Source: Minisyncoccota bacterium (GTDB lineage Bacteria > Patescibacteriota > Minisyncoccia > Phycocordibacterales > Phycocordibacteraceae). From it: a DNA stretch of 64,000 nucleotides. The notes under the pieces are model-generated. The model was not told the DNA's origin. It was given only the letters and a program-made list of their open reading frames with translations, and did not search any database. Of the stretch, positions 8,033 through 33,227 are shown piece after piece. Where the stretch lies: positions 33,470 to 97,469 of the forward strand of contig JBAYLD010000004.1 in the NCBI GenBank assembly GCA_041664265.1, written 5' to 3'. Within the stretch, counting starts at the first letter, position 1, and every line of letters starts with the position of its first letter. The position numbers and the translations under genes are program-made.

Positions 8033-10909
8033 TTACGGTGTGGTGGTGTGACGCGTGTCCATCCCCGCGAGAGGCACGGTGACATAGAAGGTTGTACCGT
8101 TTTGCTCCGCAGAATCTCTTGAGGCACCGAACGCTCGCGGCGACGGCGACTCGCACCATATCCGTCCGTGGTATTGGTCGACGGCCGCCTTTGCTATATA
8201 GAGCCCCAGACCGGTGCCCTTCACCTTGTCGTCAGTTTGGACCCGGAACAGTTTTTCGAATATTTTTTTCTGCTGATCTTTTGGTATGCCGTTGCCGGTG
8301 TCGGATACCGCGATCAGGGCGTCGCGCCCCTTCTTCTTGATCTCGATGAGGAGGGTACCTCGATCGGGGCTGTATTTTATAGCATTGGAGATCAGGTTCT
8401 CAAGAATAATCTCCATGAGCCGCCGGTCGATCTCAATGTCGGGGATATCCTCGTAGAGCTTTTTGACCCGGATTTCTTTTTCTTTCAGGGCAATACCCAC
8501 ATCTTCTAGCATCTTGTCCGAGAACTTTGTCAGGTTCACCGGCTCGAGGTTGATAACCAGCGTCCCCATCTGGATCCTCGAGATGTTCAACAAGGTCTCG
8601 ATGATGTCGGTCATATCCTTGATTCCTTTAAAGGCTATTTTCAGGTACTTCTTCTGTTCTCTAGTCAGCAGATCGTTCACATGGTGGAGTAGCATGTCGA
8701 TAGAGAGGCTAATACTCGTCAGGGGCGTCCGCAGCTGGTGGGAGGCGAAGGAGATGAATTCATTTTTTGCCTTATCAACTTCTCGCTCATGCGTGATATC
8801 TCTCCATGCGACAACCGCTCCCATGACTTCGCCATCGACGACAAAGGGCGCGGCGCTGATCGAGAGAGGGACCTTGCGCCTATCCTTTTTATTGACGAGG
8901 TGGAATGTGGTGGCGGTCGATATCGGCAAGGTCTTCTGCACTTCTGGATCGAGCGCGAGATAGATGGGCCGCTTCTCTTTTGGCACCCGCTGCCCCCGGT
9001 CATCGAAAAACGGAATCGATTCATCCAAATCCCGATGCAGGATTTCTTTTGCATCCATCCCGCACAATTTTTCGAGTGCGCTGTTTATGTATATTATTTT
9101 TCCCGACATGTCGGTCACGAGGATACCGTCAGCGATACTCAAGAGGAGCGCATCATCGCGCGCCTTCCCCTCGGCCATGCGATCTGCATATTCTTGTACC
9201 TGGTGTTCGGATTCTTTTTGTTTGCTGATGTCCCTGACGATCGAGGTATAAAACCGTTCCCGTCCGAACTTCCACGAAGACGAAGACACCTCCATCGGGA
9301 ATTCTTCGCCGTTCTTCCGCAGGCCGCGCATCTCGAGCGGCCCGCTCTCTTTGGCCAGCGGGGCGTCTTTCCCAGCCGCTTGGTTTTCTACCCCCAGGAC
9401 GAACGGCTTGCCTAGAACCTCCTTTTCGTCATACCCAAAAATGCGTTTCGCACTTTTATTCCAATATACGACGCGCCCCGCGCTATCGAACGTAATGAGC
9501 GCGTTTCGTATCGAGTCCGCCACCGAACGGAATTTTTGCTCATTTTCCTTCAACTCGCTCAGGGCTCGCTGGTTCTGGAGGGCGAGCGAAGCCATGTGCC
9601 CGAACGCGCTCGCGATCCGCTTGTCGTCCTCGGTAAAGCCGCCCGGCTTGCTCACGAATGCGAAAAATCCTGCAGGGAGGCCGTTGAGCAGTATCGGCAC
9701 GAGGAGGGCGCTCTGTATGACAATGCGGTTCCGGAACGGGTTGGCGCCCTGGTTCTCTAGGGTGAAGAAGAAATCGTTGTCGAGCACCGTTTTCCCTGTC
9801 CTGCACATTTTTTTCATGGCGCTTTTCATGGGGGCGGATTGTGTCACGTCGGCAACGCATTTCTGCAGCAAGGAATCGCAATACACGATTTCTGCCTGCT
9901 CATCTTCTCTGCCCTGCAAAACGGCGTAGCAGGATTCTGCGCCGATAGTTTTTTTGCACGCGTCGGCTATCGCTTCTGCCGAGTCTTTAAACTCGGTGTG
10001 CTTCAGAGCTTCTTGCGCGCTTCGGGAGAGGGAAGCCGTCTCTGATTCGTGCATCTCAGAATCTTCGAGAGCCTCCTGCAGATCCTCTTCTTTCTCCTTA
10101 ACGCTTTGGAGCAGTTGCTTATACGGATCCTTGAAGCTGATCGTCGCTACCGCCTGATAGAAGAAATAAAAAGAGACAACGCCCAGGGAATTCCCGATCA
10201 GATTAGAGAGATCATTCGCGCCCGCATACCACACGAAGAAGGCGGCCGAGGCGATACCGGTCGCCACCGATGAACACAAGAGATAGAATATTTTCTTCTC
10301 AAAGGCGGGGCGTCTCCATATCAAGAGCAGCAGCGAGAGAAGAAGTGCGAGGGAGACGGTGATGCCGCTCGCCCGGGTAAACGCGGTCTGCCCAACACCT
10401 TCGATATAGGAGACCGGAAATGCGTTCCAATAAAATATCGAGAACAACAAGAGGAACGTGGCGATCGCATAGGCGAGCAAGACCATGTCCACTTTTATCC
10501 TTTTGCCGATGAAGAACGGGGCCGCAACAAACGCGCTCGCCTGGAGATATTGCGTGGCGACCCAGAGCTGGGTCGCCACGTTGGTCTCGGTACTTTCGGA
10601 AGAGACGTTCATGCCTCCATAGGACAACAAATGGAGCAAGCTGGTGAAGGCGGTCGCGATAACTGAAATGCCGATAAACAGCACGTACTCGTTATTCAAA
10701 TAATCTCGGGCATTCAGAGTGATGACGAAGATGAGCACCATCAGCACGATACCGGAGAGCTCGGTCAAGTTGTGGAGCGAGAGGCGGTTATCAAGGCCGA
10801 CCAAGTAGAGCACCGCGAGCGCCAGCGCGCCGACGGCGGTATAGCGGTAGATGTCCGCAGGTATCGCTCTGGCTTGGAGAAGCACCTGTTCTCGGATGCT
10901 CAATAGCAT
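8033..10909 (-). CDS. Sensor histidine kinase with multiple TM, PAS and GAF domains
   Basis: H-box SHQLRTPL, HATPase GTGLGLYIAK, roughly 8 N-terminal TM helices and PAS repeats. Confidence 0.85.
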   Translation of the reverse strand: MLLSIREQVLLQARAIPADIYRYTAVGALALAVLYLVGLDNRLSLHNLTELSGIVLMVLIFVITLNARDYLNNEYVLFIGISVIATAFTSLLHLLSYGGMNVSSESTETNVATQLWVATQYLQASAFVAAPFFIGKRIKVDMVLLAYAIATFLLLFSIFYWNAFPVSYIEGVGQTAFTRASGITVSLALLLSLLLLIWRRPAFEKKIFYLLCSSVATGIASAAFFVWYAGANDLSNLIGNSLGVVSFYFFYQAVATISFKDPYKQLLQSVKEKEEDLQEALEDSEMHESETASLSRSAQEALKHTEFKDSAEAIADACKKTIGAESCYAVLQGREDEQAEIVYCDSLLQKCVADVTQSAPMKSAMKKMCRTGKTVLDNDFFFTLENQGANPFRNRIVIQSALLVPILLNGLPAGFFAFVSKPGGFTEDDKRIASAFGHMASLALQNQRALSELKENEQKFRSVADSIRNALITFDSAGRVVYWNKSAKRIFGYDEKEVLGKPFVLGVENQAAGKDAPLAKESGPLEMRGLRKNGEEFPMEVSSSSWKFGRERFYTSIVRDISKQKESEHQVQEYADRMAEGKARDDALLLSIADGILVTDMSGKIIYINSALEKLCGMDAKEILHRDLDESIPFFDDRGQRVPKEKRPIYLALDPEVQKTLPISTATTFHLVNKKDRRKVPLSISAAPFVVDGEVMGAVVAWRDITHEREVDKAKNEFISFASHQLRTPLTSISLSIDMLLHHVNDLLTREQKKYLKIAFKGIKDMTDIIETLLNISRIQMGTLVINLEPVNLTKFSDKMLEDVGIALKEKEIRVKKLYEDIPDIEIDRRLMEIILENLISNAIKYSPDRGTLLIEIKKKGRDALIAVSDTGNGIPKDQQKKIFEKLFRVQTDDKVKGTGLGLYIAKAAVDQYHGRIWCESPSPRAFGASRDSAEQNGTTFYVTVPLAGMDTRHTTTP

Positions 10910-11055: not shown

Positions 11056-14000
11056 ATGAAAAAGATATATATAACCACGCTCTCGATTGTGACGGCGCTA
11101 TCGCTGTCGCTCTCGCTCGTGCCTGCGGGCATCGCCCACGCGGCGTTGCAAGCAGTTTCCAGAGATGCTCTTGGGGCCGTATCAGTAAGCACGGCTACTG
11201 GATTCCCGGTCTGGTATCAAGACGTCACCGGAACTGCCTTGCAGCAGTGTCTCGGCCTTAACGCCGATGGAACGGGCGCGGCAGATCCGAAATGTATTTT
11301 GCCTACCGCGAATCCTATTCCGGACATTAACGCCAATCCAGCAGGGTTCCCCGACGAATCGTTCTATTCTTTCGCCGAGGCACCCTTGACCATTAACGGG
11401 AATGCCGGACGTTTCCGCTTGCTTACAGAAGCGGCTTTCGTGAATCTTATTCCCGTTAACGGCGAGCAGCTCACTTTTACTCGAGCTAGCTTGTTTACAA
11501 GTCAGCAAGGAGCATTCCCGGCGAACTCAACCTTCCATGTTGAATACCCATTCGGCGCATTCGACTTTTCGACTGATGCGCTCGGGGACTTTGTCTCCAT
11601 TCCTGGCTCAGGTCCATTCGGTGCAAACGCTAAAGAAATGCGCGCAGAAGACGGTCCTGGTGCTGCGGGTGACTTCGTGACACTCTTAGCGGGAGCCAAC
11701 ACGGGTATCACGACCTTCCTCAGATCAACGACAGCCCCTGTGGGTTATCTTGGTGACGCGGTTACCGAGACTCCGGTGACCGGTGGTACGAATGGCAATA
11801 TTGTCACCATCACTCAAACAGCTGGCGTCGGACCGTTCGTAGTTACGGGCGGTACCAATTGGGTAGTCGCCGGAAAGATCGCGGTGATAGATACCATCGC
11901 TCCGGTGATTACTGCAGCTCCGATGTCCGCAGCGCTCGGCACCGCGAACGCGGTTGCCAGCGTCGGCATTACCGACAACTTGTTTGTCGGCAGTGCAACT
12001 ATCGATCTCGGTGCATTGAGCAACAACTTCTCTGCCACCTTGAACGGCGCACAAGAAGTGCCCGCGACAGTTTCAGGAGCAACAGGATCAGGAACGTTTA
12101 CCATCGACACGGCAGCCAATACCTTGTCGTTCAACATCACGTCAAACGTAACGGGTGTTACGGGTATGCACATCCACGGTTCTGATATTCCTCCAAACGG
12201 AGCGGCAGGCCAAAATGCCGCAATCGCTTTTGACCTCGGCACGGCACTTCCAGCAGTAGGGACGTGGACCTATCCGGAAGCGATGGAGGCCGAGATCTTG
12301 GCGGGCAGGACGTATGTCAACATTCACACGACCTTGTTCCCCAACGGAATAATCCGCGGGCAGATCCTGCCTACGACAGATATCCAGCCTCTCACATTGA
12401 CCGCTGGCGTTAACACCAACGGTACCTGGGGTGTCGTTCTTCCTGCCTTAAACAGGTTGGGCACATTCAACTTGCCTATTGCCGTATCTGATGGCAGCAA
12501 CACGGCAACAAGCAATCTGGTTCTGACCGTCAACACGCTCGCGAGCGTGAGTGTCGCTCCGGCGACCGCGACGATTGTCGGCGCGGGAACCCAGCAGCTC
12601 ACGGCTTCGCCTTTGGACAACAACGGCACAGCCTTTGTCGGTGCGACCGTCACCTGGGCTTCAAACAACACTGCAGTCGCCACGGTTGACGCGAACGGTC
12701 TCGTGACCGGTGTCTTGAGCCAGACTCCCGGCACCGCGACCATCACCGCCACGGCAGTGAGCGGCGCGACAAGCGTTACCGGTTCGTCGGTCATATCGGT
12801 GTCTCCAGGGCTTCCGGTCTTGACGGGAGTCGCTGTGACCCCGAGTCCGGCTTCGATAGTGGTGAACGCGGCGGCCCCAGCGGGTACGACCTTACAGCTC
12901 TCGGCAGCCCCGGTAGACCAGTTCGGCGTGCCGTTTGTCGGCACGACGGTTACGTGGGCATCGAGCGACTCGCTCGTCGCCACTGTTGACGCGAACGGAT
13001 TGGTCACCTCGGTTATCCCGGGCGTCGCAACTATCACCGCGACCGCTTCAGACGGGGCACTTGTCCCGACGGTAGTCACCGGGACCTCAGTGGTAACGAT
13101 CACCACAGCACCGCAGGTGTTTACCTCGGTGAGCGTTACTCCGGCGACCGCAACGATAACCTCTGGCACGCAACAATTGACGGCCACAGGGATTGATCAG
13201 TTCGGTGGACCAATGGCGACACAGCCAGCGTTCACCTGGGCTTCGAGCAATCCTGCAGTCGCGACAGTTGATGCGACGGGCCTGGTTACTGCGGTTGGAG
13301 CTGGTTCCGCTACGATTACCGCAACCAGCGGTGCGTTGAACGGCACCTCGGTCATTACCGTTACAGCAGTCACGACCACGGACACGATTACTCCCGCGAC
13401 AGCTTCAGTTGTTCTTAACGCGACCACGCAGTTATCTGCTTCAACCCTCGATCAATTCGGCGCGGTTATTACTCCTGCTCCGGCGATTGTCTGGACATCG
13501 AGCAATCCGCTCGTTGCCACGGTTGATGCTAACGGCTTGGTCACGGGCGTTGCGCTCGGCACTGCTAATATCAACGCGGCCTCAGGCGCGCTCATCAGCG
13601 CCTCGGCGACAGTCACCGTCGTGGCCGTCCCGCAGGTGTTGACCAGCGTTGCGGTTACGCCGGCTACGGCCTCGATCATTACCGGCGCGACTCAGCAGTT
13701 CACTGCATCGGCGTTGGATCAATTCGGCTCGCCGATGATCCCTCAGCCGGTGTTCACCTGGACGTCGAGCGATGCAGCAATCGCGACGGTCAATGCCTCT
13801 GGCATGGCAACGGGTGTGATCCCGGGCGCGGTGACTATCACCGCGACCAACGGCGCATTCTCTGGGACGGCAGCTCTTACTGTCACGTTGTCTCCGGCAG
13901 TCCTCACGAGCGTTTCGGTCACTCCTGCCACGGCCTCGGTCTTGGTCGGTGCGACACAACAGCTCACAGCGGCACTCTTGGATCAGCGGAACGATCCGTT

Positions 14001-15180
14001 CACGAGCGTTGCGTCGACTACCTGGGTTTCGAGCAATCCGCTCATCGCCACGGTTGACGCGAACGGCTTGGTAACGGGTGTTGCCGTCGGTACGGCCACC
14101 ATCACGGCGACGAATGGCGCGGTGAGTGGTCAAGTGGCAGTGACGGTTCCTTCGGTGCTTCTCGCAGCGGAGATCCAGGCTACGATCGGTGGCGGCGGTG
14201 GCGGCATCTTCACGCTCCCCGCACTCACGCCGGCAACATCGACTCCTTCGGTGACGCTTGCTCTTCCGCTTAAGATCGATATGCCTTCTTCGGATGGAAC
14301 CAGCACCAGCACGGTGTCCATGCCTTCAGGCACGGTGATCACCAAGGTGGACGGCACCAATCTTGACGCCACGACGCTGTCGGCGAGCGCTGCCGCGGCG
14401 GCCTCCTTGTCGAACTTGGGCGATGTCGTCGTCAACGGTTCGGTCCAGTGGGGCATCCCGAATATCGGTTTGCAATTCAGCCAGCCGATCAGCTTGAGCA
14501 TCTTTGTCGGTACCGGCCTAAACGGCCAGGTGGTTGACATACGGCGCTCGGTAGACGGCACGTCCGACTGGACGAGCGACGGCATCGTGACGGCCACGTC
14601 AACGGTCGCCAACGGCTTCGCCAACTTCCAGGCGACGAAGGCTTCGTTCTTCGCAGCAACGACTCCGGCGCCCGCACCAGCCCCAGCTAGCTCGGGCGGC
14701 GGTGGACGTCGCGGCGGCGGAGGTTCGATCTCGTTTGCCTCCCCGACAGCTTCTTCTCCTATCGCGCAGGCAACTCCGACAGCCCCCGCACAAGGCCAGG
14801 TGCTCGGTGCAGCAGTCTTCATCTTCACCAAGAACCTCTCGGTTGGTATGCACGAAGCAGAGGTGACCGAGCTCCAGAAGTTCCTCATCGATAACGGCTT
14901 CTCGATTCCTGCAGGCGCGACCGGCTTCTTCGGCGCGCAGACAAAAGCGGCGGTCATCAAGTTCCAAAAGGATCACGGTGTGATCCAGACCGGATTCTTC
15001 GGCCCCTTGACTCGGGGTGAGGCCAATCGCGGCAGGGGATCTGGCTCATCGGGTTCGTCCGGCTCCGGGCGGAGCTCCGGCCTGAGCTCTGCACAAGTCG
15101 ATTCCATCATCGCGGTGCTCCAATCCTTCGGTGCGGATCAATCGACGGTCACCCAGGTTCGCCTGGCGCTCGGGAAATAA
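11056..15180 (+). CDS. Giant secreted surface protein. It has a signal peptide, a CHRD domain, about 8 tandem Big_2 Ig-like repeats, a PG_binding_1 domain and a C-terminal tail motif.
   Basis: Repeating unit of the form VSVTPATATI..GTQQLTA..LDQFG..WASSN.AVATVDANGLVT. The CHRD-like block reads LNGAQEVP...HIHGSDIP...YVNIHT..FPNGIIRGQI. PG-binding motif LSVGMHEAEVTELQKFL. Confidence 0.85.
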   Translation: MKKIYITTLSIVTALSLSLSLVPAGIAHAALQAVSRDALGAVSVSTATGFPVWYQDVTGTALQQCLGLNADGTGAADPKCILPTANPIPDINANPAGFPDESFYSFAEAPLTINGNAGRFRLLTEAAFVNLIPVNGEQLTFTRASLFTSQQGAFPANSTFHVEYPFGAFDFSTDALGDFVSIPGSGPFGANAKEMRAEDGPGAAGDFVTLLAGANTGITTFLRSTTAPVGYLGDAVTETPVTGGTNGNIVTITQTAGVGPFVVTGGTNWVVAGKIAVIDTIAPVITAAPMSAALGTANAVASVGITDNLFVGSATIDLGALSNNFSATLNGAQEVPATVSGATGSGTFTIDTAANTLSFNITSNVTGVTGMHIHGSDIPPNGAAGQNAAIAFDLGTALPAVGTWTYPEAMEAEILAGRTYVNIHTTLFPNGIIRGQILPTTDIQPLTLTAGVNTNGTWGVVLPALNRLGTFNLPIAVSDGSNTATSNLVLTVNTLASVSVAPATATIVGAGTQQLTASPLDNNGTAFVGATVTWASNNTAVATVDANGLVTGVLSQTPGTATITATAVSGATSVTGSSVISVSPGLPVLTGVAVTPSPASIVVNAAAPAGTTLQLSAAPVDQFGVPFVGTTVTWASSDSLVATVDANGLVTSVIPGVATITATASDGALVPTVVTGTSVVTITTAPQVFTSVSVTPATATITSGTQQLTATGIDQFGGPMATQPAFTWASSNPAVATVDATGLVTAVGAGSATITATSGALNGTSVITVTAVTTTDTITPATASVVLNATTQLSASTLDQFGAVITPAPAIVWTSSNPLVATVDANGLVTGVALGTANINAASGALISASATVTVVAVPQVLTSVAVTPATASIITGATQQFTASALDQFGSPMIPQPVFTWTSSDAAIATVNASGMATGVIPGAVTITATNGAFSGTAALTVTLSPAVLTSVSVTPATASVLVGATQQLTAALLDQRNDPFTSVASTTWVSSNPLIATVDANGLVTGVAVGTATITATNGAVSGQVAVTVPSVLLAAEIQATIGGGGGGIFTLPALTPATSTPSVTLALPLKIDMPSSDGTSTSTVSMPSGTVITKVDGTNLDATTLSASAAAAASLSNLGDVVVNGSVQWGIPNIGLQFSQPISLSIFVGTGLNGQVVDIRRSVDGTSDWTSDGIVTATSTVANGFANFQATKASFFAATTPAPAPAPASSGGGGRRGGGGSISFASPTASSPIAQATPTAPAQGQVLGAAVFIFTKNLSVGMHEAEVTELQKFLIDNGFSIPAGATGFFGAQTKAAVIKFQKDHGVIQTGFFGPLTRGEANRGRGSGSSGSSGSGRSSGLSSAQVDSIIAVLQSFGADQSTVTQVRLALGK

Positions 15181-15250: not shown

Positions 15251-16228
15251 ATGCGCAAGCCGATCCTGCATCATCTCCACGACTACTTCTTCCCGCATCC
15301 GCGCAACAATCACTGTCCGCATCTCTTCAGTACCGCATCCCTCGCGGTGCTCGCGATCGCGATTGTCATCTTTGAAGCAGGGTATCTGGTGCAGACAAAG
15401 ATCGTCTTCTTAAGGACCGACTTCCTCGCGTCAGTCTTGCCGGGGGCGCTCGTCGCGCTTACCAACCAAGATCGCGCGACGCTCGGCGTGGCGGGCGTTG
15501 CCGAGGATCCGCTCTTGAATAAGGCGGCCGCGGCGGCCGCGGCCGACATGGCGGCCAATGGATACTTCGCGCATGTCTCGCCTGGGGGTAAGGAGCCATG
15601 GTACTGGCTCGACTCCGTGGGCTATCGGTATTCCTATGCGGGGCAGAATCTCGCCGTGAACTTCACCGACTCTGAGAATGTCGAGACGGCGTGGATGGCG
15701 TCGCCGACGCATCGCGCGAACATCGAGAAGCCGCAGTATACGCGGGTTGGTATCGGCACGGCACATGGCGTGTACGAGGGGAGAGAGACGACTTTTGTCG
15801 TCGCCTTTTTCGCGACTCCCGCGTCAGCAGAGGCACACGTTGCCTCTGTGGAGGTTAAACCTCCACAAAATATCTCCACGAACGTGAGGGACGTTAGTCG
15901 TCCCTTAGCGACTACGTCCGTCCAGGTGCTCGGTACTGAGATCGTAGATACTGACGCAGGAAGTGCGGCAGTAGATGCTGACTCGGTGCCGCCAAAGGCG
16001 CCGCCGAGCCGGCTCGCTCGTATGCTCGCGTCGCCCTCTACAATGCTTCAGGTGATACTCACCGCCCTTTTTGCTCTCGTTGCGGTTTCGTTTATCGTCG
16101 TTATGTTTGTGCGGGGGAAGGATCACCACCCGCGCGTGGCTCTCGGCGCGGCGCTCCTCTGTCTGCTCATCTCTGGCGCGCTTATCGTGAGCGCCTTGGC
16201 CGCCGGACCCGTGTTACTCCTCGTTTAA
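15251..16228 (+). CDS. CAP/SCP/PR1-like (YkwD-type) domain protein with N- and C-terminal TM segments
   Basis: YAGQNLA..W..SPTHRANI...YTRVGIG signature of CAP domains. Confidence 0.65.
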   Translation: MRKPILHHLHDYFFPHPRNNHCPHLFSTASLAVLAIAIVIFEAGYLVQTKIVFLRTDFLASVLPGALVALTNQDRATLGVAGVAEDPLLNKAAAAAAADMAANGYFAHVSPGGKEPWYWLDSVGYRYSYAGQNLAVNFTDSENVETAWMASPTHRANIEKPQYTRVGIGTAHGVYEGRETTFVVAFFATPASAEAHVASVEVKPPQNISTNVRDVSRPLATTSVQVLGTEIVDTDAGSAAVDADSVPPKAPPSRLARMLASPSTMLQVILTALFALVAVSFIVVMFVRGKDHHPRVALGAALLCLLISGALIVSALAAGPVLLLV

Positions 16229-16458: not shown

Positions 16459-16515
16459 ATTAATGAAGTGTTCATAAAGCATTTGTTGCGCTTGCAGGGG
16501 CGGTATAGTGGAGCC

Positions 16516-19311
16516 ATGCGCGCTCAAAACGCCGCGTTATTTTTTATCATCATCGCGCTCACGGTGAGCGCGCCGCTCGGCGCGTTCGCTACTCCATCGA
16601 TCATCTCTCAATATTCAGGCGTAACCCAGCCATATCTGGAGCGGATGAATATACATGTTGGAGTTGCTGATCATCGCTACTTCGTGGCGACGGGGACGGT
16701 ATCCAGCATCGCACTGACGCTGGCAACTTACAAAACCACGTTCACCGGCACAGAGACATTCCAACTTCGGCTCTATAATCAGTATTATAGCCAATGGATT
16801 GATTGCGAAACGCCCGTTAAGACCATCGACGAGTGGGGAATGACGCACCTGCCGAGAGATCCGTATGCTCCCCTGGTAATGTTTGGCCCTTTTACCGGCA
16901 CACAGTGCGATGTTACCGGCACCTTTACTCCTGGGGGTGGTCCGAATTCAGGAGTCGTCTGGCCGATTCTCGACGGTAAAACCAACTACACTGATTTTCC
17001 CGGGCGCATGGGTAATAATCTCCGTTCGAATTTTACCGTGTACGGAGCTGATATCCCTGAACCCGACCCTTGTGCGACGCCGGGCGTCTGCGCTTCAAAC
17101 GTGTTGTTCTTGCCCGGCATACAGGGCAGCCGGCTGTATGAAGGGACCGGGTGCGGGAAGAGCGCCGAAGAGAAATTGTGGGAGCCGCTTGGGGATTCGC
17201 TCTTGAGCATCTTGCGCGGGGCGGGGGACGCGAAGATGCGCGGATTATTTCTGGATGATGCGGGAGAGAGCGTGTGCAGCGATGTATACACAAAAGAAGG
17301 TGATGTGATCGGCTCGGTGCGCGGTGACCCTATCTACCAATCATTTATTGACGCGATGGACGAGCTCGCCGCCGGCGGCGATATCACCGACTGGGAGCCG
17401 GTCGCCTATGACTGGCGGCTTTCGCTCGATGCCTTGTTAGACAAAGGCGCAGCGCGGGAAGGGAACCTCTATTATGCGGGGGGAGACACCGGCGCGACGA
17501 GCACGCCCTATATCGAGCAGACTCTCCGCGCGCTTGCCGCGAGCTCCAAGACGGGGAAGGTGACCATCGTGGCGCACTCTAACGGCGGCCTCGTCGCCAA
17601 GGCTCTGCTGAAGAGGCTCGGCGATGGCACAGCCTCACTGCTGGTGGACAAGGTGATCATGGTGGGCGCGCCGCAGAGCGGCGCGCCCGAGGCGTTTGGC
17701 GCGGCTCTTGTCGGGCACAACGCGGGCATTTATAAGTTCGGCTTCCCGATCGTCTCCAACGCCGTAGCGCAGGAGTTCGCCAAGAATGCGCCGATGACGT
17801 ACCACCTGCTCCCGTCAGATAGGTATCTGGCGAGCGTCGCGAGCGATGCAGATCACCCCGTCGCCCGCTTTAGGGGCGACGCCTACGCCGGAGAGATCGC
17901 GGCATACGGCGCCACCATAGGCGACACCACCGAGCTTGGCGACTTCATGCGCGCGTCCTCGCTCAACGCGTCGCTCATCGATTATGCCAACACGGCGCAC
18001 GCCGCGCTCGACGCTTGGGCGGCACCCGAGGGTATCGAGGTGAGCCAGATAGCGGGGTGGGGAGCCGACACGATCGCGGGGATAGACTTCTATACGCCGC
18101 CGCCCGTGAACGCGCTCACCGCTCTCGAGCCGATGCGCCGATATCGGCCGATCTTCACCGAGGACGGTGACGGCACGGTCCCTGTCCCGAGTGCGCTCAT
18201 GATGTCGGAGGGCGAAAATGTGAAGAGGTATTGGGTGGATCTTCATGCTTACAATCTCGAAACGAACTCTGGTCGAGAGCACAAAGATTTATTCGAAATC
18301 CCTTCATTGCAAGATTTTATTAAAAACATCATCACCAACAGCACCAGCACACTCCCGGCTTATGTCTCTACCAACCAGCCATCGTCAACAACCGAAGATA
18401 AGAAGCTCACCTTCTTCCTCCATTCGCCGCTCACGCTCCAGCTCACCGATGCATCGGGTAGGGTGACCGGCCTCGCCGAGGATGGCTCGATGACCCAAGA
18501 TATCCCCGATTCGACCTATGGCGAGTTTGGCGAGGTGAAGTATGTCACCGTCCCTCAGGGCAGCGACTACGAGCTCATCCTCCATGGCCAAGCGAGCGGC
18601 ACCTTCGCGCTTGAGATGCAGGAGAGCTCGGGCAGCGTCGTCACCGCCTCGAGCGCCATCGAGAACGTCCCGACGACCGCGAGCACGCTCGCCTCGCTCA
18701 CCATCTCGGGCGGGCTCGACACAGTCTCACCACTTACGGTTGATGCAGACGGCGATGGTGCGAGCGTCATCACTCTCACGCCGAGAGTGGGCGAGACGAT
18801 AATCTATGCTCCACTCGAAGATCCCGAGCCTGTCGAAGAGTCGGTGTCAGAATCCGAGCCAGAATTGCCACCTACGCCAGAGCCAGAACCCGCTCCTTCG
18901 ATAGATCCAGAACCTGTGGCTGCGCCCGTCGAGCCAAGGAGTTCGTCAGGGGGCGGGGGAGGCGGGAGGAGGAGGGTCTCGATCCCCGATGTTGTTGCGG
19001 CACCGGTGGTGGTCACTGAAGAAGCAGTCGCGACGACCACCACACAATCAGCCGCTATCGCTACCAGCACCCCCGAGATTGCAGCCGCTCCGCGCGTCGC
19101 CCAAAGAAGAGAGAAGTCGCCAAGGCCTGTCGCGATAAACACGCAGAAGTCGAGGGAGGAGGAGCCTGCAGTACAAAAAGCGGATACAGATATCCCACAG
19201 ACCGCGGCGGCATATGATGCCGCTTCTCAACAACCGATGGTTAAGAGGTGGGGCGCGGCAGTTTATAATGGTTTCTACGGATTCTGGGTCGCGCTCAAAA
19301 AATTCTTTTAA
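16516..19311 (+). CDS. Secreted alpha/beta-hydrolase of the LCAT/PGAP1-like lipase family, with a Pro-rich linker and a C-terminal GGGGGGRRR module
   Basis: Signal peptide MRAQNAALFFIIIALTVSAPLGAFA. Nucleophile elbow VAHSNGG (GxSxG). The tail reads PEPEPAPS...SSSGGGGGGRRR. Confidence 0.6.
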   Translation: MRAQNAALFFIIIALTVSAPLGAFATPSIISQYSGVTQPYLERMNIHVGVADHRYFVATGTVSSIALTLATYKTTFTGTETFQLRLYNQYYSQWIDCETPVKTIDEWGMTHLPRDPYAPLVMFGPFTGTQCDVTGTFTPGGGPNSGVVWPILDGKTNYTDFPGRMGNNLRSNFTVYGADIPEPDPCATPGVCASNVLFLPGIQGSRLYEGTGCGKSAEEKLWEPLGDSLLSILRGAGDAKMRGLFLDDAGESVCSDVYTKEGDVIGSVRGDPIYQSFIDAMDELAAGGDITDWEPVAYDWRLSLDALLDKGAAREGNLYYAGGDTGATSTPYIEQTLRALAASSKTGKVTIVAHSNGGLVAKALLKRLGDGTASLLVDKVIMVGAPQSGAPEAFGAALVGHNAGIYKFGFPIVSNAVAQEFAKNAPMTYHLLPSDRYLASVASDADHPVARFRGDAYAGEIAAYGATIGDTTELGDFMRASSLNASLIDYANTAHAALDAWAAPEGIEVSQIAGWGADTIAGIDFYTPPPVNALTALEPMRRYRPIFTEDGDGTVPVPSALMMSEGENVKRYWVDLHAYNLETNSGREHKDLFEIPSLQDFIKNIITNSTSTLPAYVSTNQPSSTTEDKKLTFFLHSPLTLQLTDASGRVTGLAEDGSMTQDIPDSTYGEFGEVKYVTVPQGSDYELILHGQASGTFALEMQESSGSVVTASSAIENVPTTASTLASLTISGGLDTVSPLTVDADGDGASVITLTPRVGETIIYAPLEDPEPVEESVSESEPELPPTPEPEPAPSIDPEPVAAPVEPRSSSGGGGGGRRRVSIPDVVAAPVVVTEEAVATTTTQSAAIATSTPEIAAAPRVAQRREKSPRPVAINTQKSREEEPAVQKADTDIPQTAAAYDAASQQPMVKRWGAAVYNGFYGFWVALKKFF

Positions 19312-22878: not shown

Positions 22879-24024
22879 ATGATTCACCGTAGCACCAAAA
22901 GTACCGGCTGGCAGCCCACTGCACTCGTTCACCCCGGCGAGCACCTTCTCGATTTCCTAGAGGAGAGTGGTATTTCGCAGGCTGAGCTTGCGGCACGAAC
23001 GGGTATTTCAAAAAAAGCCATCAATGAGATCGTAAACGGTAAGAGTCCCATTACGCAAAACACCGCCTTTAAACTGAGCAAGATTCTCTCGGTGTCTCCA
23101 GAATTCTGGATAAACCTACAGAGTAATTATGATCTGGCGCTTGCACAGAACGCAGAGTGTCAAAGGCTCGAGGGCGAGGCGGTCGCACATGCGCAAGATT
23201 TTAAGGAAACATATCAGGAACTTGAGAGGCGCGGCTTTGTGCCGGCATGCAGATGGGCAAAGAAAAACATTCTTGAGATTACGCGGAATCTCCAGCACTT
23301 TTTCGCCGTTGATTCTCTAGCGTATATTGCCGAAGACACTATGGAGTTTGCCTTTCGCAAATACAACCGAAAGAACGTAAATCAGTACACGCTCGCCGCC
23401 TGGGTACAACTCGGGAAGATCCAGGCCAAGCTCGTCGAGGCGAAGTCTTTTGATAGGGAGAAATTGAAATCGGAGTTACCGAAAATTAAGTCTTTGTCTC
23501 GCAAGGACTGGAAGGAATACGCGCCTGAGCTGGAGAAATTACTCGCGGACTGTGGCGTAGTGCTTGTTCTCGCACCTCGATTTACGCATGTGCCGGTACA
23601 GGGCGCGACGCACTGGATAGAGAGCGAGAGAGTTCTCGTGATGCTTAACACAGAGCATCAGTATGAAGACCGTTTCTGGTTCAGCTTATTTCACGAACTT
23701 GGGCATGTGCTTCTGCACGGTAAGAAAGATGTGTATGTCGACTTCGATAAAGACGGCGAAAAGACGGAAGAAGAAAAAGAGGCAGACGCATTCGCACAAA
23801 AGTGGCTTATTCAGGATCTAGACGAATTCTATGCCCTACTTAAGAAAACGGCGGATCTGGAAGGTTCTGTCAAGAAGATCGCAGATATAAATGGTGTTTC
23901 AGAAGCAGTCGTCGCTGGGCGCATTACGCACGATCATGCTACGACGCAGAGAATCTACGCGCTTATGAGCCCTTTCCAAAAAGAGAGAATCGAATACTCA
24001 AATATTACCTTCAATAACGCATAA
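22879..24024 (+). CDS. HigA-like XRE-family HTH fused to an ImmA/IrrE (COG2856) Zn-metallopeptidase domain
   Basis: N-terminal HPGEHLLDFLEESGISQAELAARTGISKKAINEIVNGKSPIT...PEFWINLQ matches the HigA HTH. The C-terminal HEXXH motif reads FHELGHVLLH. Confidence 0.7.
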   Translation: MIHRSTKSTGWQPTALVHPGEHLLDFLEESGISQAELAARTGISKKAINEIVNGKSPITQNTAFKLSKILSVSPEFWINLQSNYDLALAQNAECQRLEGEAVAHAQDFKETYQELERRGFVPACRWAKKNILEITRNLQHFFAVDSLAYIAEDTMEFAFRKYNRKNVNQYTLAAWVQLGKIQAKLVEAKSFDREKLKSELPKIKSLSRKDWKEYAPELEKLLADCGVVLVLAPRFTHVPVQGATHWIESERVLVMLNTEHQYEDRFWFSLFHELGHVLLHGKKDVYVDFDKDGEKTEEEKEADAFAQKWLIQDLDEFYALLKKTADLEGSVKKIADINGVSEAVVAGRITHDHATTQRIYALMSPFQKERIEYSNITFNNA

Positions 24025-24271: not shown

Positions 24272-26641
24272 ATGAAAGATATGACTGACCCAAACCTCTC
24301 AGAGCGCGATATCTGCACGAAGTACATCACTCCGGCACTCGTGGCGGCAGGGTGGAATATCCAGACTCAAGTCAGAGAAGAATTGAGCTTCACGGCCGGA
24401 CGCATCAATATACGCGGTAAGACCATTTCGCGCGGAGAAAAGAAACGTGCCGACTATGTCCTGTACTATAAAAACAATCTCCCGATCGCTCTTATCGAAG
24501 CGAAAGATGCGAATCACTCGGTTGGTGACGGGATGCAGCAAGCGCTTGCGTATGCTGAAGCACTCGATATCTCGTTTGTCTTCAGCTCAAACGGTGCGGG
24601 GTTTCTGGAGCACGATCGATTGAAAACAGGAGGGGATATTGAACAGGAAATTGCTTTGGAGGCATTTCCGAGCCCGGGTGCCCTTTTTGAACGGTATCAA
24701 CACGGAAAGAATCTGGACGAAGAGGAACGCGATATCCTGCTACAGGAGTATTTCCAAGATGGATCCGGTCGTGGCCCGCGCTACTATCAGATCAATGCCA
24801 TAAATCGCGTGGTAGAAGCGGTCGCAAAGGGCCAGAACCGCATCATGCTCGTCATGGCGACGGGGACCGGCAAGACCTACACCGCATTTCAAATCATTTG
24901 GCGGCTCTGGAAGGCAAAAAAGAAACAGCGCATATTGTTTCTTGTTGATCGAACAGCGCTTGCAGACCAAACAAAGAACAGCGATTTTCGACATTTCGGC
25001 AATGCCATAACGAAGATTGATGGTCCGAAAGTTGATCCGGCCTACGAGGTGTATATCGCGCTCTATCAGGGGCTCATGGGTGGCGAGGAGACAGAGAAAT
25101 TTAAGCAATTTTCACCGGATTTTTTCGATCTGGTCGTAGTGGATGAGTGTCATCGCGGTGTCGCGAGAGATGATGCACTCTGGCGCTCAATCCTCGACTA
25201 CTATGCGAGCGCCACGCATATCGGCCTTACGGCAACTCCTAAGGCAGCTGACGATGCGAATAATTTTGAATATTTCGGCGCGCCTATCTACACCTACTCC
25301 CTCAAGCAGGGGATTGAAGACGGCTTCCTTGCGCCGTATAAAGTCATCCGATACATTTTAGATAAAGACGAATGGCGGCCCGATAGTATGGTGCGCGACA
25401 CGAGTGGCAACCAGATCGAAGATCGCATTTATACCACCGCAGACTACGACACGAAGCTCGTTATAGATGCGCGTGCCAAGCTCGTTGCCGCGAAAATCGT
25501 TGAGTTCATGCGCGAAACCGATCCGATGCAGAAAGCTATCGTTTTTTGTGTCGATCAGGCTCACGCTGAGCGGATGCGCGAAGCGCTCGTCAACGCGAGT
25601 GGGGAATATGCGGCCCAAAATAGCCGCTATGTCGTGCGCATCACCGGTGATGATACCTACGGCAAGCTTGAAATAGATAACTTCACGAATCCCGAATCTC
25701 CGTATCCAGTCATCGCCACTACGTCAAAGTTGCTCTCTACTGGCGTCGATACCCAGACAGTAAAGCTCATCGTGCTTGATGCCCCGATGAACTCTATGAC
25801 CGAATTTAAACAAGTCATCGGCCGAGGCACGCGCATCAACGAGCAGTACGGTAAGTACTACTTCACCATCATGGACTTCCGTAACGTCACACGGCTTTTC
25901 GCCGATAAAGACTTCGACGGTGAGCCGGTCGAGAGTTACGAACGCAAAGTTGAGGAGACACTGCCGATCAAGCGCATTATCGAAGAAGAAACCGTCTCTG
26001 AACGTGAGATCATCGAGCATAATCCGCAAGAAGAAATCCTTATTGATGGAACCGAAGAGAATCCGAAGCCGAAGAAGATACATATCGCTGATGGGGTTAC
26101 CTTCGACGTGATCCATAAGCTGGTGCAGTATATTGATCCAGCGACTGGTAAACTCATCACCGCGTCGCTCCAGGACTACAGTAAGAAGGCTGTCTGTGGT
26201 ATGTATGCTTCGCTTGAAGACTTCCTCAACCGATGGAACGCTACCGAGCGCAAAGAAGTGATTATCAGTGAGCTCGCCGAGCGTGGCGTTATCTTTGATG
26301 AGCTTCGCGCAGAGGTAGGGCAGGAGTGCGACGTGTTCGACCTCATCACACAGGTCGCTTTTGGCAAGAAGCCGCTCACACGGAGTGAGCGGCTGAAGAA
26401 CGTGAGGCAGAGCGACTACTTCGCCAAATATGAGGGTCAGGCACGCGAGATTATTAATCACCTCTTAGAGAAGTATGCCGAGTATGGCATTACTGCCATA
26501 GACGACATCGGTGACTTGCAGGTCTCGCCCTTTAGTGATTATGGCGCGCCGGTTGAGATCGTGGATGGTATCTTCGGCGGTCGCGAGCAATATTTACAAG
26601 TTGTTCGCGAGATCGAGCGGCAGTTGTATAGTGCTTCGTAG
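24272..26641 (+). CDS. hsdR: Type I restriction enzyme R subunit
   Basis: HsdR N-terminal nuclease region, helicase motif I VMATGTGKT and motif II VVDECHRG. Confidence 0.9.
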   Translation: MKDMTDPNLSERDICTKYITPALVAAGWNIQTQVREELSFTAGRINIRGKTISRGEKKRADYVLYYKNNLPIALIEAKDANHSVGDGMQQALAYAEALDISFVFSSNGAGFLEHDRLKTGGDIEQEIALEAFPSPGALFERYQHGKNLDEEERDILLQEYFQDGSGRGPRYYQINAINRVVEAVAKGQNRIMLVMATGTGKTYTAFQIIWRLWKAKKKQRILFLVDRTALADQTKNSDFRHFGNAITKIDGPKVDPAYEVYIALYQGLMGGEETEKFKQFSPDFFDLVVVDECHRGVARDDALWRSILDYYASATHIGLTATPKAADDANNFEYFGAPIYTYSLKQGIEDGFLAPYKVIRYILDKDEWRPDSMVRDTSGNQIEDRIYTTADYDTKLVIDARAKLVAAKIVEFMRETDPMQKAIVFCVDQAHAERMREALVNASGEYAAQNSRYVVRITGDDTYGKLEIDNFTNPESPYPVIATTSKLLSTGVDTQTVKLIVLDAPMNSMTEFKQVIGRGTRINEQYGKYYFTIMDFRNVTRLFADKDFDGEPVESYERKVEETLPIKRIIEEETVSEREIIEHNPQEEILIDGTEENPKPKKIHIADGVTFDVIHKLVQYIDPATGKLITASLQDYSKKAVCGMYASLEDFLNRWNATERKEVIISELAERGVIFDELRAEVGQECDVFDLITQVAFGKKPLTRSERLKNVRQSDYFAKYEGQAREIINHLLEKYAEYGITAIDDIGDLQVSPFSDYGAPVEIVDGIFGGREQYLQVVREIERQLYSAS

Positions 26642-26644
26642 GCC

Positions 26645-28779: not shown

Positions 28780-28783
28780 GGGT

Positions 28784-33196: not shown

Positions 33197-33227
33197 ACGA
33201 TTAACTCAACGGGTTGAGTTAATCGTC
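33197..33227. terminator. Hairpin gacgattaactcaac-ggg-ttgagttaatcgtc with a 14-bp stem. It overlaps the sppA stop.
   Basis: Perfect 14-bp inverted repeat. Confidence 0.55.

What the first reader, a model, noticed from the sequence alone, without database searches (positions are those of the whole stretch)
14680..15180. Three large secreted proteins share a C-terminal module (Pro/Ala-rich linker, G4-6RR(R), PAQGQVLGA, and a SFG(A/V)DQS tail), which is a candidate envelope-sorting or anchoring signal
The 1374-aa Big_2/CHRD protein ends in ...SSGGGGRRGGGG...PTAPAQGQVLGAAV, then a PG_binding_1 domain, then ...VLQSFGADQSTVTQVRLALGK.

The MBG protein (36368..37570) ends in ...ASRGGGRRR...ASPAQGQVLGASV...FLRSFGVDQSIIDRVREVTHI.

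The lipase-like protein (16516..19311) has ...RSSSGGGGGGRRRVS after its PEPEP linker.

This conserved order does not match LPXTG, PEP-CTERM or GlyGly-CTERM signals. It may mark a lineage-specific processing site (Gly-run followed by Arg-run) and a wall-binding tail.
Basis: seen in the sequence. Interest (0 to 1): 0.55.

Follow-up and report, generated by a model that had tools for sequence, protein, structure and literature searches.

The report
Patescibacterial C-terminal wall-anchor cassette
The shared tails are real: they are a modular C-terminal cassette (glycine hinge, GQVLGA motif, peptidoglycan-binding domain, small helical hairpin) that many candidate-phyla-radiation bacteria use to hold varied surface proteins at the cell wall, and a CAP-domain membrane protein gene usually follows the cassette gene.

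Summary
p1 (11056..15180) and p3 (36368..37570) share a Gly/Arg run, PAQGQVLGA and a 33-aa C-terminal element. p2 (16468..19311) shares only the Pro-rich linker and G6R3.

This is not low-complexity coincidence. A tail profile built without p3 finds p3 at 36.9 bits. The cassette [G-run, spacer, G(Q/R)VLGA, PG_binding_1, LQSFGAD tail] recurs at the extreme C-terminus of proteins of 128-2070 aa, almost only in Patescibacteria.

It is modular. The tail can precede or follow PG_binding_1, or be replaced by a Q/L-rich helix. The Arg run is a minority variant (≥2 Arg within 8 aa of the G-run in 5 of 63).

It is not an LPXTG, PEP-CTERM or GlyGly-CTERM type signal. In related loci that have a sortase, the same VxG motif sits just before a canonical LPXTG signal, so it is a juxta-anchor motif and not the sorting signal.

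New here: a CAP-domain membrane protein gene (window 15251..16228) lies directly downstream of the cassette gene in 48 of 67 loci. Its linker carries its own conserved VLG motif.

The most likely function is non-covalent wall anchoring through PG_binding_1, with the helical tails giving oligomerisation. I rate it a new variant of a known kind, of moderate interest.

The parts
11056..15180 (+). p1: 1374-aa secreted surface protein (signal peptide, CHRD, 6x Big_2) carrying the full C-terminal cassette
   Evidence: ORF. Pfam Big_2, CHRD and PG_binding_1. N-terminal MKKIYITTLSIVTALSLSLSLVPAGIAHA reads as a Sec signal peptide (by inspection).
14695..14724 (+). p1 Gly/Arg run GGGGRRGGGG (hinge), preceded by a TPAPAPAPASS linker and followed by SISF
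   Evidence: G-runs followed by (S/A)I(S/A)F and NPLPGA recur in homologs. AF2 pLDDT is below 50 here.
14785..14811 (+). p1 juxta-anchor motif PAQGQVLGA
   Evidence: V, L and G are invariant in 26 cassette sequences. Gly at -2 occurs in 62 of 65 although it was not part of the scan pattern.
14854..15015 (+). p1 PG_binding_1 domain (aa 1267-1320)
   Evidence: Pfam PF01471, 45.4 bits against a cutoff of 23. The AF2 model matches solved PG-binding domains 5tv7, 6tci and 3bkh at rmsd 1.6-1.8 Å over about 55 columns.
15079..15177 (+). p1 C-terminal 33-aa tail (..LSSAQVDSIIAVLQSFGADQSTVTQVRLALGK), a predicted helix-turn-helix hairpin
   Evidence: Tail HMM 57.6 bits. AF2 gives helices 137-149 and 154-163 of the model at pLDDT about 90. 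No Pfam hit at E<=10.
15251..16228 (+). CAP/SCP-domain membrane protein: N-terminal TM, CAP domain, variable linker, C-terminal hydrophobic (likely TM) region. It is the conserved downstream partner gene of the cassette gene.
   Evidence: Pfam PF00188, 47.1 bits against a cutoff of 21.1. Orthologous cluster present in 48 of 67 loci, mostly 4-130 nt downstream on the same strand.
15926..15937 (+). VLGT motif (SVQVLGTEIV) in the CAP protein's linker
   Evidence: VLG columns are the only columns conserved at >=70% in the linker of 48 CAP proteins. Logo.
16468..19311 (+). p2: LCAT/lipase-like secreted protein. It shares only the PEPEP linker and G6R3 run and has a different C-terminus.
   Evidence: Pfam LCAT. 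No tail or PGB1 HMM hit. Homologs in L002 and L005 lack the extension.
18949..18975 (+). p2 Gly/Arg run GGGGGGRRR
36368..37570 (+). p3: 400-aa secreted MBG-domain protein with G/R run, QGQVLGA and tail but no PG_binding_1
   Evidence: ORF. Pfam MBG_2 and MBG_3. PGB1 HMM gives only 1.3 bits.
37370..37387 (+). p3 Gly/Arg run GGGRRR
   Evidence: It aligns with SSRRRGGGGGRR of P0005 and SSSRRRGGGS of P0225.
37433..37459 (+). p3 juxta-anchor motif PAQGQVLGA
37472..37567 (+). p3 C-terminal tail (LTRAQAGSLVEFLRSFGVDQSIIDRVREVTHI), of the 'VLGAS-xx-LTxxQ' tail-first subtype
   Evidence: Tail HMM 36.9 bits. Alignment with tail-first proteins. AF2 gives helices 60-72 and 77-86 at pLDDT 91-95.

Best explanation
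The tails are instances of a modular C-terminal display and anchoring cassette that is widespread in Patescibacteria (Paceibacterota/Parcubacteria, Kaiserbacteria-like organisms). A Sec-secreted passenger of almost any kind is followed, in order, by:
1. a disordered stalk made of Pro/Thr/Ala-rich spacers and a poly-Gly hinge, which in some lineages, including this one, is decorated with Arg;
2. a short conserved juxta-anchor motif, G(Q/R/S)VLGA(S/A)(T);
3. one or more anchor modules.

In p1 the anchor is a PG_binding_1 domain, which would bind peptidoglycan non-covalently. It is followed by a 33-residue helix-turn-helix hairpin (LTxxQxxxIxxLLQSFGADxxxIxxVxxAL). p3 has only the hairpin. p2 has only the stalk, followed by a different hydrophobic C-terminus.

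**Inferred mechanism.**
- PG_binding_1 holds the protein in the wall.
- The hairpin, or the alternative Q/L-rich amphipathic helix found in other species, oligomerises. This gives multivalent wall binding, and lets a PGB1-less protein such as p3 ride on PGB1-bearing partners.
- The Gly/Pro stalk spans the wall and displays the passenger.

**Shown:** the anatomy, recurrence, C-terminal position, modularity, lineage restriction, the PGB1 fold and the predicted hairpin.

**Inferred:** peptidoglycan binding, oligomerisation, and any role of the VLG motif and of the neighbouring CAP protein.
For: **Recurrence.**
- 25 of the top 150 50%-identity representatives carry the full cassette at the extreme C-terminus of proteins of 128-2003 aa.
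- 425 clusters match the cassette profile at E<=1e-5. The named ones are Patescibacteria, Minisyncoccota and Kaiserbacteria.
- 66 genome loci were found, nearly all in Patescibacteria MAGs.
- In 70 ORFs, PGB1 ends a median of 39 aa before the stop codon, and VLG directly precedes it in 65.

**Stalk-to-motif link.** Of 102 ORFs with G{4,}, 63 have VLG[ASTVE] within 90 aa downstream. Shuffling gives an expectation of 2.2.

**Modularity.**
- 13 proteins have the order VLGA, tail, (VLGA), PGB1.
- After PGB1: 17 LQSFGAD tails, 27 or more Q/L amphipathic helices, and 17 with nothing.
- VLGA also precedes coiled-coil-only tails, TM anchors and LPXTG signals.

**Structure.**
- The PGB1 model matches solved PG-binding domains.
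- Both tails are confident helical hairpins (pLDDT about 90-95), and the stalk including VLGA is predicted disordered.

**Minimal members.** The smallest members are just signal peptide + (F)GYGGGG + spacer + cassette (P0081, P0105), so the cassette is a self-contained unit.
Against: - No experimental or direct computational evidence here for peptidoglycan binding by this PGB1 subtype, or for oligomerisation of the tails. A single-chain AF2 run cannot show oligomers.
- The very strong conservation of G-x-VLGA, and its presence in otherwise unalignable linkers (including the CAP protein's), is more than a passive stalk needs. It suggests a recognition or processing function that this explanation leaves open.
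- p2 does not fit the cassette beyond the stalk.
- The genome-locus set was selected with a VLGA-PGB1 pattern, so frequencies from it are conditional on that pattern.
Confidence: 0.65

Rival explanations
1. The G(Q/R)VLGA(S)T motif, together with the Gly hinge, is a genuine short linear recognition motif. It would be a processing, shedding or tethering site read by a dedicated envelope factor, most plausibly the co-encoded membrane-anchored CAP-domain protein, which carries its own copy of the motif in its linker. In this reading the cassette is part of a two-gene surface-display system and not just a passive anchor.
For: - A CAP gene lies immediately downstream of the cassette gene in 48 of 67 loci. 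The next most frequent neighbour family occurs in 12.
- Reciprocally, 33 of 71 CAP genes found independently in metagenomes have a PGB1-bearing ORF just upstream. Most of the rest have a G-run/VLG protein with another anchor, or a sortase plus an LPXTG protein.
- VLG is the only conserved element in the CAP linker.
- The motif variant in CAP tends to follow that of the surface protein (VLG versus VAG/VKG): odds ratio 5.2, p=0.011, not corrected for phylogeny.
- The motif sits 3-6 residues before LPXTG in sortase loci.
- AF2 predicts it to be disordered rather than part of the PGB1 fold.
Against: - No enzymatic activity is established for bacterial CAP domains (my own knowledge).
- The putative catalytic Glu in the GENLA motif is Gln in the window's protein (YAGQNLAV).
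- The co-variation test is weak and confounded by shared ancestry.
- Adjacency may reflect co-expression of envelope proteins without direct interaction.
- No cleavage data exist.
Confidence: 0.22
2. One reading: the tail is a C-terminal sorting signal of the LPXTG, PEP-CTERM or GlyGly-CTERM kind, with the Gly-run/Arg-run as the cleavage site for a dedicated sortase-like enzyme or protease.
For: - C-terminal position on diverse secreted passengers.
- Gly/Arg runs in all three window proteins.
- Arg-decorated G/S runs recur in some other lineages (SSRRRGGG, GSSRR[TV]).
Against: - No NCBIfam sorting-signal model matches.
- p1 and p3 have no hydrophobic helix plus basic tail at the C-terminus. 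It is an amphipathic hairpin.
- The tail can lie internal to PGB1.
- The Arg run is absent from most members.
- The window has no sortase or LPXTG.
- Where a sortase is present, a canonical LPXTG signal is also present downstream of the VxG motif.
Confidence: 0.06
3. The similarity is compositional chance or an artefact: low-complexity Gly/Arg/Pro runs that arise by slippage in a GC-rich genome, with no shared function.
For: - Every Arg codon is one substitution from a Gly codon, and the runs use mixed GGN/CGN/AGR codons.
- G-run lengths vary from 4 to 18 between homologs.
- p2 shares nothing else.
Against: - PAQGQVLGA is identical in p1 and p3, and the tail is detected by an independent HMM.
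- Hundreds of homologs exist with invariant VLG.
- The G-run to VLG association is about 30 times the shuffled expectation.
Confidence: 0.05

Closest known systems
Non-covalent cell-wall-binding anchor domains of monoderm bacteria (PG_binding_1/PF01471, and by function LysM, SH3b, CWB2, SLH)
   Same: A C-terminal folded wall-binding domain is attached through a flexible spacer to diverse secreted passengers. p1's domain passes the Pfam threshold, and its model superposes on solved PG_binding_1 domains.
   Different: - PG_binding_1 is classically found on peptidoglycan hydrolases, transpeptidases and MMP pro-domains (my own knowledge). Here it is the terminal anchor of adhesin-like proteins (Big_2, CHRD, fn3-like, DUF11).
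- It is always capped by G-x-VLGA, preceded by a poly-Gly hinge, and often followed by a small helical tail that no Pfam or NCBIfam model covers.
Sortase/LPXTG sorting signals
   Same: C-terminal position on surface proteins with a Pro/Gly-rich wall-spanning region upstream. In related Patescibacteria loci the same G-run + VxG stalk leads into LPXTG + TM + basic tail, next to a sortase gene.
   Different: p1, p2 and p3 have no LPXTG. p1 and p3 have no C-terminal TM helix or basic tail. The window has no sortase. Anchoring would be non-covalent.
PEP-CTERM, GlyGly-CTERM and PGF-CTERM (exosortase, rhombosortase, archaeosortase) signals
   Same: Lineage-restricted C-terminal tags found on many unrelated secreted proteins.
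   Different: Those signals consist of a motif, a TM helix and an Arg-rich cluster at the very C-terminus, and they co-occur with a dedicated sortase-like enzyme (my own knowledge). None of these features is present, and no NCBIfam model hits.
Bacterial CAP/SCP (PR-1-like, YkwD-type, PF00188) extracellular domains
   Same: The partner gene's ectodomain passes the Pfam threshold (47.1 bits), with conserved His residues and the GENLA-type motif.
   Different: Here it is an integral membrane protein with a conserved cytoplasmic N-terminal motif, a VLG-bearing linker and a C-terminal hydrophobic (likely TM) region. It is tightly linked to surface-protein genes. I found no described function or linkage of this kind.

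Membership tests
PG_binding_1 (PF01471) wall-binding domain | Sequence match above Pfam's gathering threshold | tested here: met
   p1 aa 1267-1320 scores 45.4 bits against a cutoff of 23. p3 and p2 have no hit.
PG_binding_1 (PF01471) wall-binding domain | Three-helix PG-binding fold | tested here: met
   The AF2 model of p1 aa 1209-1374 matches 5tv7_A, 6tci and 3bkh at rmsd 1.6-1.8 Å over 54-57 columns with Foldseek probability 0.99-1.00, but E-values of only 0.07-0.26. Domain pLDDT is 65-76.
PG_binding_1 (PF01471) wall-binding domain | Actual binding to peptidoglycan | not testable with these tools
   Needs a sacculus pull-down with the recombinant C-terminal fragment.
LPXTG/sortase sorting signal | LPXTG-like pentapeptide within about 35 aa of the C-terminus | tested here: not met
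   A regex scan of all window ORFs found none. The C-termini of p1, p2 and p3 were also read directly.
LPXTG/sortase sorting signal | C-terminal hydrophobic helix followed by a basic tail | tested here: not met
   p1 and p3 end in an amphipathic helix-turn-helix. p2 ends in a roughly 17-aa aromatic, hydrophobic stretch + KKFF but has no motif upstream. This is inconclusive for p2 alone.
LPXTG/sortase sorting signal | Sortase encoded in the genome or neighbourhood | tested here: inconclusive
   No TLxTC signature in the 64-kb window. The rest of the genome is not available. Related loci that have a sortase also have LPXTG proteins.
PEP-CTERM, GlyGly-CTERM, PGF-CTERM and related NCBIfam sorting signals | Match to the curated HMM (motif + TM + Arg cluster) | tested here: not met
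   An NCBIfam scan of the full proteins and isolated tails at E<=1 returned no sorting-signal model.
Patescibacterial G-run/VLGA/PGB1/tail cassette (defined here) | G(Q/R/S)VLGA motif within about 90 aa downstream of a Gly run, near the C-terminus of a secreted protein | tested here: met
   Met by p1 and p3, not by p2. Family-wide figures: 63 of 102 G-run ORFs against 2.2 expected.
Patescibacterial G-run/VLGA/PGB1/tail cassette (defined here) | 33-aa LTxxQ...LQSFGAD...V..AL tail detected by the profile | tested here: met
   p1 57.6 bits, p3 36.9 bits, p2 none.
CAP/SCP domain (PF00188), partner gene 15251..16228 | Sequence match above Pfam's gathering threshold | tested here: met
   47.1 bits against a cutoff of 21.1. 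Orthologs L002 and L080 score 58.2 and 67.1 bits.

The most novel reading that the evidence does not exclude
xVLGx(S/T), with VAG/VKG variants, is a Patescibacteria-wide short linear motif placed just N-terminal of whatever anchor a surface protein uses: PG_binding_1, coiled coil, TM helix or LPXTG. It would be read by the co-encoded membrane-anchored CAP-domain protein, which carries the same motif in cis. This would define a previously undescribed two-component surface-protein tethering or processing system and give bacterial CAP domains a function.
Probability: 0.2. Interest if true: 0.75.

Novelty: new variant of a known kind. Interest (0 to 1): 0.45.

Why it matters
Patescibacteria (CPR) are mostly uncultured, often episymbiotic bacteria whose surface proteins are thought to mediate attachment to hosts. 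How those proteins are held at the envelope is poorly described.

The cassette gives three practical things:
- a simple sequence rule (G-run, then GxVLGA, then PGB1 or a helical tail) for recognising wall-associated surface proteins in CPR genomes, independent of the passenger domain;
- a new small helical domain that is missing from Pfam and NCBIfam;
- a strongly linked CAP-domain membrane protein, which is a concrete and testable candidate partner.

If the VLG motif proves to be a recognition site, that would be a new surface-display mechanism. If not, this is an ordinary non-covalent wall anchor with lineage-specific trimmings.

Tried and rejected
1. A homolog search with the 73-aa p3 tail alone found only 17 word-sharing candidates and none scored. 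The word index is too coarse for this short, divergent query.

2. The representative search used alignment A2, whose profile unintentionally kept P0002's N-terminal fn3-like region (330 positions). Many top hits were therefore fn3 or PGB1-repeat proteins. Only hits covering profile positions about 200-330 were used.

3. I first thought p3 was a p1-type cassette with the PGB1 core deleted (VLGASV|GPLTRA junction, as MAFFT aligned it). I rejected this in favour of the 'VLGAS-xx-LTxxQ tail-first' subtype after seeing P0104, P0235, P0245 and others.

4. The tail profile against PDB sequences gave only summed hits of about 1 bit each to TALE repeats (LTPEQVVAI). These are not significant per domain.

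5. Pfam at E<=10 on isolated tails gave nothing meaningful.

6. Literature searches for the motif strings, Patescibacteria surface anchoring, and bacterial CAP proteins found nothing relevant.

Docking of the VLG motif into the CAP domain could therefore not be examined.

8. The co-variation of CAP and surface-protein motif variants is only suggestive and is not phylogeny-corrected.
Full report

Pfam gives the following:
- p1: Big_2 x6, CHRD and PG_binding_1.
- p2: an LCAT-like alpha/beta hydrolase.
- p3: MBG_2 and MBG_3.

A six-frame regex scan finds G{3,}R{2,} in real ORFs only at 14695-14712, 18949-18975 and 37370-37387. It finds QVLGA only in p1 and p3, and SFG(A/V)DQS only in p1 and p3. 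PAQGQVLGA is identical in p1 (14785-14811) and p3 (37433-37459).

p2 shares only the Pro-rich linker and the G6R3 run. After that it has about 150 aa of low-complexity sequence and ends in WGAAVYNGFYGFWVALKKFF. Its homologs in two related genomes lack this whole extension. The observation therefore holds for two proteins and only in part for the third.

**2. Is it more than low complexity?**

Yes. Homologs of p1's last 206 aa include proteins from Parcubacteria that share GQVLGA + PG_binding_1 + ...LQSF(G/N)xDQxT..RV+.AL.

An exhaustive profile search of 1.84 billion representatives returned 34,019 proteins at E<=0.001; most of these match only the PG_binding_1 or fn3-like parts of the profile. 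Among the best 150 were 25 proteins of 128-2003 aa that carry the complete cassette at their extreme C-terminus. Their alignment has invariant V, L and G in the motif and a well-conserved 33-aa tail.

A tail HMM built from that alignment, which does not contain p3, detects p3 aa 369-395 at 36.9 bits and p1 at 57.6 bits. It finds nothing in p2.

A second database search with the cassette profile gave 425 clusters at E<=1e-5. The few that carry names are Patescibacteria group, Minisyncoccota and Candidatus Kaiserbacteria.

A scan of one genome per species found 66 loci. Almost all are in Patescibacteria MAGs: Paceibacterota, Kaiser-, Adler-, Nomura-, Taylor-, Wolfe-, Yonath- and Uhrbacteria. A few carry odd bin labels. 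Flanking genes of the window are syntenic with several of these loci, so the window is from a Paceibacterota/Kaiserbacteria-like organism.

**3. Anatomy of the cassette.**

Across the loci, the VLGA-capped PG_binding_1 sits at the C-terminal end of stop-to-stop ORFs of 103-2070 aa, with a median of 39 residues after the domain.

Upstream there is almost always a poly-Gly run of 4-18 residues. It is often followed by (S/A)I(S/A)F...NPLPGA or GP(L/F)S(V/I)G(F/Y)VN, then a Thr/Pro/Ala spacer, then G(Q/R/S)VLGA.

In 1,651 gene-like ORFs, 102 contain G{4,}. In 63 of these a VLG[ASTVE] follows within 90 aa, against 2.2 expected from shuffles. The median distance from the G-run to VLG is 30 aa, and from VLG to the C-terminus 117 aa.

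The smallest family members are just a signal peptide, (F)GYGGGG, a spacer and the cassette (P0081, P0105; also L022, L024, L049, L053, L065, L066).

What follows PG_binding_1 varies:
- the LQSFGAD tail in 17 ORFs;
- a Q/L/A-rich amphipathic helix (e.g. MSDEQRSLLIQSLQAQLAVL) in 27, plus several borderline cases;
- nothing, or a Ser/Thr tract, in the rest.

Thirteen proteins have the reverse order: VLGA, tail, (VLGA), PG_binding_1. p3 matches that tail-first subtype closely (VLGAS-xx-LTxAQ...LRSFGxDQSxIDxV) but stops right after the tail.

The 'conserved order' is thus really a set of interchangeable modules, each typically introduced by VLGA.

**4. The Arg run.**

Arg next to the Gly run is not a general feature. 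R lies within 8 aa of the G-run in 9 of 63 cases, and two or more R in 5 of 63.

It is nevertheless recurrent in scattered lineages:
- SSRRRGGGGGRR (P0005)
- SSSRRRGGGS (P0225)
- RRTG11R (P0087)
- GSSRR[TV]-type runs in L023, L030, L047, L056, L065 and L067

All Arg codons are one substitution from Gly codons, and the window's runs use mixed codons. I read the Arg run as a lineage-specific decoration of the hinge. It may add positive charge for contact with anionic wall polymers or the membrane, but that is inference. Nothing here tests whether it is a cleavage site.

**5. Structure.**

AF2 on p1 aa 1209-1374 with 24 sequences gave the following:
- a moderately confident PG_binding_1 (pLDDT 65-76);
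- a confident C-terminal helix-turn-helix (model residues 137-149 and 154-163, pLDDT about 90);
- a disordered stalk that includes the G/R run and VLGA (pLDDT below 50).

Foldseek against the PDB matched only PG-binding domains: 5tv7, SleB N-terminal domain 6tci, phiKZ gp144 3bkh, and L,D-transpeptidases, at rmsd about 1.6-2 Å over about 55 columns.

AF2 on p3's last 89 aa gave the same hairpin (helices 60-72 and 77-86, pLDDT 91-95), with everything upstream disordered.

The tail has no Pfam match even at E<=10, no NCBIfam match, and only spurious summed TALE-repeat hits in PDB sequences. A 27-residue amphipathic hairpin is unlikely to be stable alone. Together with the alternative coiled-coil-like tails, this suggests an oligomerisation or docking role (inference).

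**6. Is it a sorting signal?**

Tested features of LPXTG and of PEP-CTERM/GlyGly-CTERM-type signals are not met:
- no curated model hits;
- no LPXTG and no sortase signature in the window;
- no terminal TM helix plus basic tail in p1 or p3.

Related loci are informative. In L080, L098 and L109 the surface proteins end with a G-run, then QGEV(K/L/A)G(A/V/E)(S/T)T, then 0-4 further residues, then LP(A/E)TG, then a TM helix and basic residues. A Pfam-confirmed sortase gene follows. In other loci VLG precedes C-terminal TM helices, or coiled coils with no PGB1.

The VxG motif is therefore a juxta-anchor element shared by proteins with different anchoring mechanisms. It is not itself the anchor or the sorting signal.

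**7. The co-occurring gene.**

All-against-all clustering of neighbouring ORFs showed one outstanding family. A roughly 330-aa CAP/SCP-domain membrane protein (window 15251..16228; PF00188, 47.1 bits) lies on the same strand, typically 4-130 nt downstream of the cassette gene, in 48 of 67 loci. The next most frequent neighbour family occurs in 12.

The reciprocal test scanned metagenomes with the CAP alignment. Of 71 CAP genes with enough upstream sequence, 33 have a PGB1-bearing ORF ending just upstream. For the other 38, the upstream gene is as follows (plus Pfam):
- about 8 have a G-run/QVLG protein with a divergent Cys-containing PGB1-like module (Pfam 19.7-21.8 bits, below the cutoff);
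- about 5 have G-run/VLGA plus a coiled coil;
- about 5 have VLG plus TM helices;
- 5 have a sortase gene, three of them with LPXTG surface proteins upstream of it (L080, L098, L109).

The CAP proteins have a conserved N-terminal cytoplasmic motif (HHLHDYFFPHxRNNYRPHLF), a TM helix, the CAP domain, a variable linker and a C-terminal hydrophobic (likely TM) region.

In that otherwise unalignable linker, the only columns conserved at >=70% spell VLG. The window has SVQVLGTEIV. The logo is x(Q/R/S/K)VLG(A/T/S)(E/Q)T.

Where the surface protein uses VAG/VKG variants, as in the sortase loci, the CAP linker tends to as well. The 2x2 table is 35/22/4/13, odds ratio 5.2, p=0.011, and is not corrected for phylogeny.

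This is the most unexpected result. It is the basis for the 'novel case': that VLG is a recognition motif linked to the CAP protein. I could not test this.

**8. Verdict.**

The finding is real and generalises. It is best filed as a lineage-specific, modular variant of a known strategy: non-covalent C-terminal wall anchoring through a peptidoglycan-binding domain on a flexible stalk.

It has three undescribed features:
- the invariant GxVLGA juxta-anchor motif;
- a new 33-aa helical tail;
- a tightly linked CAP-domain membrane protein.

The 'sorting signal with a Gly/Arg processing site' reading is not. Interest is moderate (0.45). It would rise substantially if the VLG/CAP link proved functional.

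Noticed in passing
window 15251..16228 (+); orthologs e.g. L002:10487-11494, L080:7971-9002: A CAP/SCP-domain membrane protein gene sits directly downstream of the cassette gene in 48 of 67 loci. Its variable linker holds a conserved VLG motif. It also has a strongly conserved cytoplasmic N-terminal motif, HHLHDYFFPHxRNNYRPHLF (P15, N19 and P23 nearly invariant).
   Followed up: partly
L080:4686-9002, L098:3-2046, L109:1413-5388, L115:3-2558: In some Patescibacteria the same locus reads surface protein(s) with G-run + VxG motif + LPXTG signal, then sortase (PF04203), then CAP membrane protein. The CAP gene is thus linked to surface-protein loci whatever the anchor type.
   Followed up: partly
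L072, L077, L088, L106, L122, L127, L139, L147 (C-termini of ORFs upstream of CAP): A divergent, Cys-containing PG_binding_1-like C-terminal module (..YLNDYL.FG.KN...V..LQ.FLN...YVYKTTRRWIN..CP.L.LP.P.LP). It scores just below Pfam's PG_binding_1 cutoff (19.7-21.8 against 23) and is also preceded by a G-run and QVLG.
   Followed up: partly
P0175-P0185, P0188, P0195, P0197 (database proteins): Many database 'proteins' start exactly at VLGA/MLGA (a GTG start). They sit on short contigs and so look like truncated gene calls. Assemblies may break in the low-complexity stalk, which would make public annotations under-report the passengers.
   Followed up: no
window 16468..19311 (p2), last ~20 aa at 19249..19308: The lipase/LCAT-like protein carries a species-specific C-terminal extension (PEPEP linker, G6R3, about 150 aa low complexity, then WGAAVYNGFYGFWVALKKFF) that is absent from its homologs in L002 and L005. 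It may be a different kind of C-terminal anchor.
   Followed up: partly
window 24272..30656 (+): A complete type I restriction-modification system (HsdR, HsdM, and an HsdS-like Methylase_S). It is preceded at 22879..24024 by an HTH + IrrE/M78 peptidase regulator gene.
   Followed up: no
window 8033..10909 (-) and 7320..8027 (+): A large multi-TM PAS/histidine kinase (by reading the sequence, not scanned against Pfam) and an OmpR-type response regulator lie immediately upstream of p1, divergently oriented. They could regulate the surface-protein locus. L007 has the same kinase next to its cassette genes.
   Followed up: no
window 33227..34090 (-): An S49 (SppA-type) signal peptide peptidase gene lies about 2 kb upstream of the p3 locus. 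It is probably general secretion housekeeping and not a dedicated processing enzyme.
   Followed up: no
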